Positions 58,869-58,915 of a stretch of 64,000 bases of DNA are shown one piece after another. The stretch's first letter is position 1, and each line of letters starts with the position of its first letter. This DNA is from Deltaproteobacteria bacterium GWB2_55_19 (lineage in GTDB: Bacteria > Desulfobacterota > GWC2-55-46): NCBI GenBank assembly GCA_001797465.1, contig MGPQ01000005.1, positions 95,032-159,031 of the forward strand, written 5' to 3'. Position numbers and translations under genes: made by a program. A model generated the notes under the pieces. That model was not told where the DNA came from and ran no database searches. It saw nothing but the letters and a program-made list of their open reading frames with translations.

Positions 58869-58915
58869 CCCGTACCCGCAAGGGTGTGTGGGTTCGATTC
58901 CCACCTCCGGCACCA
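58869..58915 (+). tRNA. tRNA 3-prime-terminal fragment (variable-arm-like stem, T-arm, acceptor 3-prime strand, ACCA); no matching 5-prime half is present, so it is a likely att-site remnant
   Basis: The T-arm GTGGG-TTCGATT-CCCAC is followed by CTCCGGC-A-CCA. No upstream GCCGGAG acceptor partner is present. Confidence 0.5.

What the first reader, a model, noticed from the sequence alone, without database searches (positions are those of the whole stretch)
58869..58915. Orphan tRNA 3-prime end (T-arm + acceptor strand + CCA) without a 5-prime half, 135 nt beyond the island's right-hand repeat
Seen in sequence: GTGGGTTCGATTCCCAC-CTCCGGC-A-CCA is a canonical tRNA 3-prime end, preceded by a short CCCGCAAGGG stem reminiscent of a class II variable arm. 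No complementary acceptor 5-prime strand exists upstream. Established knowledge: integrative elements that target tRNA or tmRNA genes duplicate the 3-prime segment of about 45 nt at the distal att site. Inference: this marks one boundary of an integrated element. The intact tRNA and integrase would lie at the other boundary, probably outside this window. The whole 0-58.9-kb region might be one composite island.
Basis: partly seen in the sequence, partly recalled or inferred. Interest (0 to 1): 0.5.

Follow-up and report, generated by a model that had tools for sequence, protein, structure and literature searches.

The report
Mobile-element attachment site, tRNA-Leu 3' half
The orphan tRNA end is real: it is the tRNA-Leu(CAA) 3' half inside a 280-base attachment-site module that joins two neighbouring metal-resistance cassettes at the cargo end of a large conjugative element, which is an ordinary footprint of tRNA-targeted integration and not a gene.

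Summary
Window 58861-58915 (+) is positions 32-76 of a tRNA-Leu(CAA): anticodon loop, variable arm, T arm, acceptor 3' strand, A, CCA. There is no 5' half, and ARAGORN and Rfam call no tRNA.

The fragment is part of a sharply bounded, conserved module of about 280 nt (58706-58985).

- In a related Syntrophales contig, an intact tRNA-Leu(CAA) is followed by the same spacer and terminator. Then come 4.7 kb of accessory genes, the same arm, an orphan 3' half and chromosomal hydrogenase genes.
- In two lineages, a chromate cassette is present or absent exactly at the core CTCAAAATCCC.

So the arm reads as the trailing (P) end of the left-hand element. The tRNA half plus terminator reads as the leading (P') end of the cassette on the right. 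The module is an internal P-O-P' junction in a tandem array next to an F-type conjugative backbone, not the island's terminal boundary.

No integrase and no intact partner tRNA were found within reach. This is a new member of a known kind, of low to moderate interest.

The parts
58706..58860 (+). Non-tRNA arm ('body'), read as the P arm: the trailing right end of the element on the left. It starts GGAAATTGTACTAATTTTGTATT, carries three 9-mers (TAAGACTCC, AGAGACTCT, AAAGACTAC), and is most conserved in its last 60 nt.
   Evidence: Homology to a divergent MAG (L019) starts exactly here and the flanks are unrelated. The same arm sits just inside the orphan fragment of an element flanked by an intact tRNA-Leu in L030. 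It shows no covariation and no fold signal.
58861..58873 (+). Core (O): CTCAAAATCCCGT, the anticodon loop plus the 3' anticodon-stem strand. This is the stretch within which the arms change partners.
   Evidence: In L030 the identity block shared by the intact tRNA and the orphan begins at this C and runs 15 nt. Lineages L009 and L031 differ by a cassette inserted exactly after CTCAAAATCCC.
58861..58915 (+). tRNA-Leu(CAA) 3' half, positions 32-76: anticodon loop, variable arm ACCCGCAAGGGT, T arm GTGGG/CCCAC, acceptor strand CTCCGGC, discriminator A, CCA.
   Evidence: It is 47/55 identical to the intact L030 tRNA; six of the eight differences are compensatory changes in stems (variable arm and T stem) and two are in the T loop. 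The chimera is accepted as tRNA-Leu(CAA).
58916..58985 (+). Spacer plus short terminator (hairpin TCCCGCGCGGGA 58960-58971, T-run 58972-58977). Together with the tRNA half it is read as the P' arm, the leading end of the right-hand cassette.
   Evidence: The same spacer and terminator follow the intact tRNA-Leu(CAA) in L030 and L050. They also follow the fragment in L019, L029, L031 and L034, in front of a different cassette. Homology stops at about 58985-58991.
46136..46174 (+). Relic of the first 39 nt of another copy of the arm, right after parB at the end of the conjugative backbone.
   Evidence: 92% identical to 58706-58744. Similarity stops after 39-41 nt.
46175..58705 (-). Left-hand cargo: cytochrome c, SHOCT, P-type ATPase, EamA, P-II, and an RND efflux pump with its membrane-fusion and outer-membrane partners. 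No integrase.
   Evidence: Pfam families of the called genes.
58986..64000 (.). Start of the right-hand cassette: CopD-like, two ArsR-type regulators, pyridine-nucleotide-disulfide oxidoreductase, methyltransferase, MMPL. It continues beyond the window to a 413-aa gene and then a second arm copy at window-equivalent 67746-67911. No integrase.
1..45729 (-). Conjugative-element backbone: F-type T4SS genes, coupling protein, primase-like protein, Gp3-like recombination directionality factor, DnaN, PRTRC cassette, SbcCD-like pair, ArdC, ParB.

Best explanation
The fragment is the core and P' half of an attachment site used by a family of tyrosine-integrase-type integrative elements. These elements target the anticodon-loop region of tRNA-Leu(CAA).

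**What each element carries.**
- At its leading end it carries a replacement tRNA-Leu 3' half with its own terminator (P'). This regenerates the tRNA gene on integration.
- At its trailing end it carries an arm of about 155-166 nt (P).

**How the module arose.** When a second element integrates into the regenerated site, the junction between the two neighbours reads P(left element) - core - P'(right element). That is the 280-nt module at 58706-58985.

**The array in this window.**
- The left neighbour is the metal-efflux cargo attached to an F-type conjugative backbone.
- The right neighbour is a 9-kb resistance cassette with no integrase (a CIME-like element).
- That cassette ends in its own P arm and an older, decayed tRNA-Leu 3' part.

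**Shown and inferred.**
- Shown: the anatomy, the conserved ends with variable cargo, a cassette present or absent exactly at the core, and a related element bounded by an intact tRNA-Leu and an orphan.
- Inferred: that a trans-acting integrase, probably on the conjugative element outside the window, catalyses the exchange, and that the array starts at an intact tRNA-Leu(CAA) further left.
For: 1. **Discrete module.** Between the window and a divergent MAG (L019), similarity starts at 58706 and ends at about 58985. It is 87% over 295 nt and the flanks are unrelated.
2. **A canonical integrated element in a related locus.** L030/L050 read: intact tRNA-Leu(CAA), then the same spacer and terminator as in the window, then 4.7 kb of accessory genes without an integrase (two methyltransferases, an ABC-2 permease, SHOCT, an NmeDI-like nuclease), then an arm variant, then an orphan tRNA-Leu 3' half with a different variable arm, then a chromosomal Mbh/Nuo-type operon. 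This is seen in 24 contigs.
3. **Insertion polymorphism at the core.** After the same 413-aa gene, arm and CTCAAAATCCC, lineage L031 carries [tRNA half + terminator + chromate cassette + arm variant + core] in front of the older 3' part. Lineage L009 lacks it.
4. **The right-hand cassette is bounded by P' and P.** P' is at 58861-58985. A second arm copy, 90% identical over 166 nt, lies at window-equivalent 67.75-67.91 kb.
5. **The tRNA part keeps tRNA structure across variants.** There are compensatory changes in the variable arm and T stem. The arm shows none, and the covariation term is +1.2. A chimera with a genuine 5' half is a valid tRNA-Leu(CAA).
6. **The context is a conjugative element with cargo**.
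7. **The principle is established.** Islands in tDNAs regenerate the target and leave a displaced fragment, anticodon-centred att sites are a recognised class, and tandem arrays occur (PMC4383910). Decayed elements that keep their att sites (CIMEs) accrete in tandem (PMC5704250).
Against: - No integrase of this att family was found: none in the window, in either cassette, or in L030-type elements.
- The only integrase nearby is a truncated remnant next to a different, tRNA-Ala-type module.
- The intact tRNA-Leu(CAA) that should head the array was not found in 9.5 kb further left, nor in about 10 kb more of a related element.
- No empty site was recovered for any locus.
- No excised circle or alternative junction was seen for the window's own cassettes.
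- Assigning the terminator flank to P' rather than to native chromosome rests on comparative logic, not on an observed recombination event.
- Arm-type integrase binding sites are only guessed from short repeats.
Confidence: 0.72

Rival explanations
1. The fragment is a plain attR: the displaced native 3' end of a chromosomal tRNA-Leu gene. It marks the far boundary of one composite island that fills window 1-58.9 kb. Chromosome lies to its right, and the intact tRNA and integrase lie beyond the left edge.
For: The orientation and extent of the fragment fit a displaced 3' tDNA fragment. A terminator follows it, as expected of a native tRNA gene. The left side is mobile DNA. GC skew changes sign at about 58 kb.
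Against: - The DNA to the right is itself bounded by the same arm plus a tRNA-Leu remnant 8.8 kb on, and consists of accessory resistance genes.
- The same MMPL/413-aa block lies 'outside' the fragment here but 'inside' it in L019.
- The same terminator flank follows the intact tRNA on the element side in L030.
- That flank precedes three unrelated cargo sets.
Confidence: 0.1
2. The module is the live attP of the whole replicon. On this reading the window comes from a circular conjugative plasmid or an excised ICE that integrates into tRNA-Leu(CAA) through this site. It is not a junction of separately acquired cassettes.
For: The P-O-P' composition is what an attP looks like. The backbone has ParB, a PRTRC cassette and a T4SS, as plasmids do. 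No integrated copy with this exact 3' half was found.
Against: - No integrase lies next to the site.
- A second arm plus a decayed fragment, and a 39-nt arm relic, lie in the same orientation nearby, as in an accreted array.
- Contigs of about 170 kb show no closure. scaffold_45 simply breaks at window position about 31 kb and continues in scaffold_1115.
Confidence: 0.08
3. It is a decayed tRNA-Leu pseudogene whose 5' half was lost to an unrelated deletion or insertion, with no site-specific recombination involved.
For: There is no 5' half and no integrase nearby.
Against: - The break falls exactly at the start of the anticodon loop in every variant. The same non-tRNA arm abuts it in four diverged versions and several genomic contexts.
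- The 3' half is intact and keeps compensatory pairs.
- A cassette insertion polymorphism maps to the same point.
Confidence: 0.05
4. The 210-nt stretch 58706-58915 is a small RNA gene with a tRNA-like 3' domain. Such a domain might serve as a processing or CCA-adding handle, or as a primer or decoy. The RNA would be transcribed from the TTGTAC... motif and ended by the terminator.
For: It is a discrete conserved unit with a terminator 45 nt after the CCA. A second module type with the same starting motif ends in a tRNA-Ala 3' part.
Against: - There is no sigma-70-like promoter on the + strand.
- Folding is no better than shuffled sequence, with z = -0.74.
- RNAalifold finds no compensatory changes outside the tRNA variable arm across six variants, and the covariation term is unfavourable.
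- There is no Rfam family hit.
- The acceptor 5' strand needed for RNase P or CCA-enzyme recognition is absent.
- The arm and the tRNA half recombine independently.
Confidence: 0.03

Closest known systems
Genomic islands, prophages and ICEs integrated in tRNA genes with anticodon-loop-centred att sites (Williams 2002, NAR 30:866, as cited in the Islander paper PMC4383910)
   Same: The 3' tDNA fragment runs from the anticodon loop to CCA. The element supplies a replacement 3' half that regenerates the gene. The repeats are direct. In the related locus L030, an intact tRNA-Leu(CAA) and an orphan bracket the element.
   Different: In the window, no intact cognate tDNA and no integrase are within reach. 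The fragment is at an internal junction, not an island endpoint. The Islander criteria for a tandem array (each member with its own integrase) are not met.
CIMEs and site-specific tandem accretion with ICEs (ICESt1/ICESt3 of Streptococcus thermophilus, Pavlovic 2004 and Bellanger 2011, as reviewed in PMC5704250)
   Same: The cassettes keep both att ends but lack integration and transfer genes. They are stacked in one orientation next to a conjugative element. The cargo differs between lineages at the att core.
   Different: The host group (uncultivated groundwater Deltaproteobacteria and Syntrophales), the target (tRNA-Leu(CAA), not the 3' end of fda or tRNA-Lys) and the T4SS type (F-type) all differ. 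Mobilisation in cis has not been shown. A second att family (tRNA-Ala(CGC)) with the same arm-start motif is interleaved.
Integron cassette arrays
   Same: This is a functional analogy only: promoterless or self-contained cargo units without their own recombinase, inserted one after another at a recombination site.
   Different: There is no IntI, no attI or attC, no folded single-strand sites, and no common promoter. The sites are double-strand tRNA-type att sites with long arms.
RNAs with tRNA-like 3' domains (tmRNA, including two-piece forms, and YrlA)
   Same: A T arm plus an acceptor strand ending in ACCA.
   Different: The acceptor would pair as GCCGGAG/CTCCGGC, giving C3:G70 rather than the G3:U70 of tmRNA. 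There is no 5' strand, no tag reading frame and no pseudoknots. ARAGORN and Rfam are negative.

Membership tests
Displaced 3' tDNA fragment of an island integrated in a tRNA gene (Islander/Williams definition) | The fragment reproduces the 3' part of a tRNA gene, starting at the anticodon loop or T loop and running to the 3' end. | tested here: met
   58861-58915 equals positions 32-76 of tRNA-Leu(CAA). The chimera is accepted by ARAGORN.
Displaced 3' tDNA fragment of an island integrated in a tRNA gene (Islander/Williams definition) | An intact cognate tRNA gene lies in direct orientation on the same replicon. | tested here: inconclusive
   There is none in the window, in 9.5 kb further left, or in a related element's next 10 kb. 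No exact partner was found in GTDB representatives or the JGI subset. The feature is met in the related locus L030/L050. The 69-139 kb further left could not be read.
Displaced 3' tDNA fragment of an island integrated in a tRNA gene (Islander/Williams definition) | A tyrosine integrase gene lies within the island. | tested here: not met
   No Phage_integrase hit among window ORFs of at least 150 aa or among the called genes. The only remnant lies beyond the window, next to a tRNA-Ala-type site.
CIME-type cassette in a tandem accretion array | The element is bounded by both att ends and lacks integrase and transfer genes. | tested here: met
   The right-hand cassette has P' at 58861-58985 and a P arm at window-equivalent 67746-67911. 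Its nine genes include no integrase or tra genes. The same holds for the 4.7-kb L030 element.
CIME-type cassette in a tandem accretion array | Gain or loss of a unit occurs exactly at the att core. | tested here: met
   L031 carries, and L009 lacks, [tRNA half + terminator + chromate cassette + arm + core] at CTCAAAATCCC.
CIME-type cassette in a tandem accretion array | Excision or mobilisation by an integrase supplied in trans or in cis by a related ICE. | not testable with these tools
   This needs junction PCR or read mapping, or genetics. No circular junction was seen among the assembled contigs.
Functional tRNA gene | A complete cloverleaf with an acceptor 5' strand and a D arm. | tested here: not met
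   ARAGORN finds 0 genes. There is no GCCGGAG upstream. The 155 nt upstream are unrelated to tRNA.
tmRNA (one- or two-piece) | A G3:U70 acceptor stem, a tag reading frame and pseudoknots. | tested here: not met
   The acceptor strand CTCCGGC implies C3:G70. ARAGORN finds no tmRNA. Rfam matches the T arm only, at 15.5 bits against a cut-off of 47.
Structured small RNA | A promoter, a stable fold and covariation. | tested here: not met

The most novel reading that the evidence does not exclude
The array is not anchored in a chromosomal tRNA gene at all. Instead, the conjugative element carries its own tRNA-Leu-type pseudo-target. A trans-acting integrase loads and swaps integrase-less resistance cassettes there, each bounded by a replacement tRNA half and a 160-nt arm. 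That would be an integron-like cassette-capture platform built from tRNA-type att sites. A second, tRNA-Ala(CGC)-type site sharing the same arm-start motif would serve as a parallel dock.
Probability: 0.12. Interest if true: 0.6.

Novelty: new member of a known kind. Interest (0 to 1): 0.3.

Why it matters
- **Boundary calling.** An orphan tRNA 3' half need not mark the end of an island. It can be the leading end of the next cassette. Here the mobile region runs on past the fragment by at least another 9 kb.
- **Resistance cargo in aquifer bacteria.** It documents a family of resistance cassettes without integrases (Czc-type efflux, copper and arsenic regulators, MMPL, chromate). They have conserved tRNA-Leu(CAA) att ends and are shuffled between uncultivated groundwater Deltaproteobacteria, next to an F-type conjugative element. 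This is a plausible route for assembling and spreading metal-resistance cargo.
- **Significance.** Nothing here challenges current understanding.

Tried and rejected
- **Hidden or intron-split tRNA.** I looked for a 5' half at the start of the arm or for a long-range acceptor pairing. None exists.
- **tmRNA or two-piece tmRNA.** Rejected on acceptor identity and on ARAGORN and Rfam results.
- **Small RNA gene.** Rejected: no promoter, no fold signal, no covariation.
- **Circular replicon suggested by two contigs of about 170 kb.** Rejected: scaffold_45 just breaks at window position about 31 kb and continues in scaffold_1115.
- **Exact-match hunts for the intact partner.**
  - The GTDB 41-mer scan gave only two orphan copies.
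  - The JGI scan for the 5' strand plus the 54-mer gave nothing. That collection did not return known JGI contigs carrying the site, so the negative result is weak.
- **The integrase at the right end.** It is only a C-terminal remnant with no full-length close relative.
- **Walking left through TraN.** This reached a related element (94% identity) with TraU, TrbC and BREX genes, but no tRNA, att motif or integrase. TraF, TraH, TraG and a relaxase have still not been seen, so the left end is probably tens of kb further on.
- **Alternative contexts of ParB, CopD-like and the outer-membrane protein.** All are identical.
- **Empty site at the Syntrophales locus through NuoB.** All 24 contigs are occupied or end before the site.
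- **Plasmid and viral collections.** Nothing matches the arm or the flank.

Full report
**1. Observation**

The sequence at 58869-58915 is as described: variable-arm-like hairpin ACCCGCAAGGGT, T arm GTGGG-TTCGATT-CCCAC, acceptor 3' strand CTCCGGC, discriminator A, CCA.

- The 28-nt T-arm and acceptor string is unique in the window. It appears in none of 100 dinucleotide-preserving shuffles, even with three mismatches allowed.
- ARAGORN finds no tRNA or tmRNA in the 64 kb.
- Rfam at gathering thresholds finds only a cobalamin riboswitch at 6758-6943.
- A permissive Rfam scan of 58500-59300 matches only the 17-nt T arm to the tmRNA model, at 15.5 bits against a cut-off of 47.
- The complementary acceptor strand GCCGGAG does not occur on the + strand anywhere in the 16 kb upstream of the fragment.
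From 58861 the sequence reads CTCAAAA-TCCCG, an anticodon loop with anticodon CAA plus the 3' strand of the anticodon stem.
- BLAST of 58700-58990 against phage and plasmid records matches only this part, over features annotated tRNA-Leu.
- Two viral contigs carry intact tRNA-Leu(CAA) genes with the same 28-nt end.

The fragment is therefore positions 32-76 of a tRNA-Leu(CAA), with no 5' half.

**2. Surroundings**

The window is mobile DNA from groundwater Deltaproteobacteria. A contig of MAG GWA2_55_10 is 99.9% identical over 4.1 kb.

| Region | Content |
|---|---|
| 1-46 kb | Conjugative backbone on the - strand: F-type T4SS genes (TraL/E/K/B, continuing left into TraV/C/N), coupling protein, ribonucleotide reductase, SNF2 helicase, methyltransferase, primase-like protein, Gp3-like recombination directionality factor, DnaN, PRTRC cassette, SbcCD-like pair, ArdC, ParB |
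| 46.2-58.5 kb | Cargo: cytochrome c, SHOCT, P-type ATPase, EamA, P-II, and an RND pump with its membrane-fusion and outer-membrane partners |
| Right of the fragment | CopD-like protein, two ArsR-type regulators, an oxidoreductase, a methyltransferase, MMPL; beyond the window, a TP_0789-like protein and a 413-aa protein |

No integrase is present in any of this.

**3. The fragment is part of a bounded module**

I aligned the window with the only divergent genome that carries the 41-mer (MAG GWA2_54_12, locus L019). Similarity starts abruptly at 58706 (GGAAATTGTACTAATTTTGTA...) and stops at about 58985 (...TTCCCGCGCGGGATTTTTTATGCCG). It is 87% over 295 nt, and the flanks on both sides are unrelated.

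The module has three parts:
- a 155-nt non-tRNA arm;
- the 55-nt tRNA half;
- a 70-nt spacer with a short terminator.

**4. What the arm and the flank are**

A scan of metagenome contigs for the arm/core junction returned six loci.

*Locus L030.* Its sequence recurs in 24 contigs that carry an identical NuoB-like protein; NCBI assigns that protein to a Syntrophales MAG. Read in the orientation of the tRNA, it shows:

1. an intact tRNA-Leu(CAA);
2. the same spacer and terminator as in the window;
3. 4.7 kb of accessory genes without an integrase;
4. a variant of the arm;
5. an orphan tRNA-Leu 3' half with a different variable arm;
6. a different flank, then a chromosomal Mbh/Nuo-type operon.

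This is the canonical layout attL - element - attR. The arm is therefore the element's trailing end (P). The tRNA half with its terminator is the element's leading end (P'), which regenerates the gene. The shared identity block starts at the first base of the anticodon loop and runs 15 nt.

*A second comparison gives the same answer.* After the same 413-aa gene, arm and CTCAAAATCCC, lineage L031 carries [tRNA half of the window's type + terminator + chromate-resistance cassette + arm variant + core] in front of an older tRNA-Leu 3' part. The window's own lineage (L009) lacks that block. One cassette, with exactly these ends, is present or absent at the core.

**5. Reading the window**

- The module at 58706-58985 has the composition P-O-P'.
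- Its arm closes the element on the left. Its tRNA half and terminator open the cassette on the right.
- That cassette is about 9 kb and encodes no integrase. It ends at window-equivalent 67746-67911 in its own arm copy (90% identical over 166 nt). An older tRNA-Leu 3' part carrying a deletion follows.
- The 39-nt relic at 46136, just after parB, is what remains of another arm at the end of the backbone.
- The same MMPL/413-aa block lies to the right of the fragment here but to its left in L019. There the fragment is followed by a phosphatase and chromate genes. A single terminal attR cannot explain that, but stacked cassettes can.

**6. Why it is DNA signal and not an RNA gene**

- There is no sigma-70-type promoter on the + strand.
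- The 210-nt stretch folds no better than shuffled versions, with z = -0.74.
- Across six variants, RNAalifold finds compensatory changes only in the tRNA variable arm, and the covariation term is unfavourable at +1.2.
- The tRNA half, by contrast, keeps its pairs. Variable-arm and T-stem differences between variants are compensatory.
- The window fragment joined to the L030 5' half is accepted as tRNA-Leu(CAA). That is expected of a replacement half that has to yield a working tRNA after integration.

**7. What is missing**

- *The integrase.* None of this att family was found. The nearest integrase sequence is a C-terminal remnant, with no full-length close relative, beyond the window. It sits beside a second kind of module. 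That module starts with the same GTACTAATTTTGTATT motif and ends in an orphan tRNA-Ala(CGC) 3' part, after which contigs diverge.
- *The intact partner tRNA.* The tRNA-Leu(CAA) that should head the array was not found in the window, in 9.5 kb further left, or in about 10 kb more of a 94%-identical related element.
- *Exact-match scans.* These found only orphan copies in GTDB representatives and nothing in the JGI collection. That collection failed to return known JGI contigs with the site, so this negative result is weak.
- *Other gaps.* No empty site and no circular junction were recovered. The large contigs extend 69-139 kb further left, a stretch I could not read.

**8. Comparison with known systems**

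- The principle is established knowledge: islands integrate into tRNA genes, regenerate the target and leave a displaced fragment. Anticodon-centred att sites are a recognised class, and tandem arrays occur (Islander paper PMC4383910, citing Williams 2002).
- Decayed elements that keep both att sites but have lost integrase and transfer genes (CIMEs), and their site-specific accretion next to ICEs, are described for streptococci and others (review PMC5704250).
- The window fits that pattern in a new host group, with a new target and att family.
- It does not meet the strict Islander criteria, because no intact tDNA or integrase is in reach.
- I therefore file it as working like a CIME/ICE accretion array, with membership only partly shown.

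**9. Verdict**

- It is wrong on the key detail. This is an internal junction, the tRNA half belongs to the cassette on the right, and the mobile region continues past it.
- It is a new member of a known kind, of low to moderate interest (0.3).
- The most novel reading still open is an ICE-borne, integron-like cassette dock built on tRNA-type att sites. I put its probability at about 0.12.

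Noticed in passing
window 19195-45847 (e.g. 22578-22676, 27197-27249, 33366-33464, 34589-34687, 39236-39334, 41948-42046, 45749-45847; partial copies at 19273 and 20117): A family of intergenic repeats of about 100 nt, with at least 8 copies, in the conjugative backbone. On the gene (-) strand each reads GTAATATATAGACATGTAGTTTTTTCAGTAGG, then a hairpin AAAGCCACGGGAA..TTCCTGTGGC with a T-run, then a ribosome-binding site. 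It looks like a shared promoter or leader with a terminator-like hairpin in front of many operons, which may mean antitermination-type control.
   Followed up: no
window 6758-6943 (+), with ORF 7174-7830 (+): A full-length cobalamin riboswitch (121.7 bits) lies in front of a CbiM-like transporter gene. Both are embedded in the conjugative element between T4SS genes and an HD-domain gene.
   Followed up: no
beyond the window, equivalent to about 67.95-68.26 kb; L009 1570-1274, L017 767-476, L031 4296-4010: A second att-type module starts with the same GTACTAATTTTGTATT..GGCAGTC motif. It has a body of about 250 nt with CTGTTGCAAAACTGTTGCA and AGGGA repeats, and ends in an orphan tRNA-Ala(CGC) 3' part plus terminator. 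Contigs diverge right after its CCA: some continue into a truncated tyrosine-integrase remnant, others into a 134-aa gene and a NosD-like gene. L034 has two such Ala fragments 110 nt apart.
   Followed up: partly
window 34671-38967 (-): A PRTRC cassette (ThiF-like E1, JAB, E2 family D, prokaryotic ubiquitin, PRTRC_E) sits inside the backbone, next to ParB, ArdC and SbcCD-like genes.
   Followed up: no
L001 14425-15780 versus L035 2722-7190 and 16960-23756 (left of the window): Two 94%-identical versions of the T4SS region carry different defence-type inserts between traC and traN: DUF7830/DUF6035 in one, SIR2 and DUF87 genes in the other. The second version also has a BREX cluster after trbC.
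   Followed up: no
window 60446-60579 and 60755-60888: A 134-nt direct repeat (77% identical, 309 nt apart) lies inside ORF 60369-61205. It is probably an internal domain duplication in the 239/278-aa protein of unknown function.
   Followed up: no
L030 4481-5803 and L050 11937-13259: The 4.7-kb Syntrophales cassette without an integrase carries a 440-aa protein with an NmeDI-type restriction-endonuclease C-terminal domain, next to SHOCT and methyltransferase genes.
   Followed up: no
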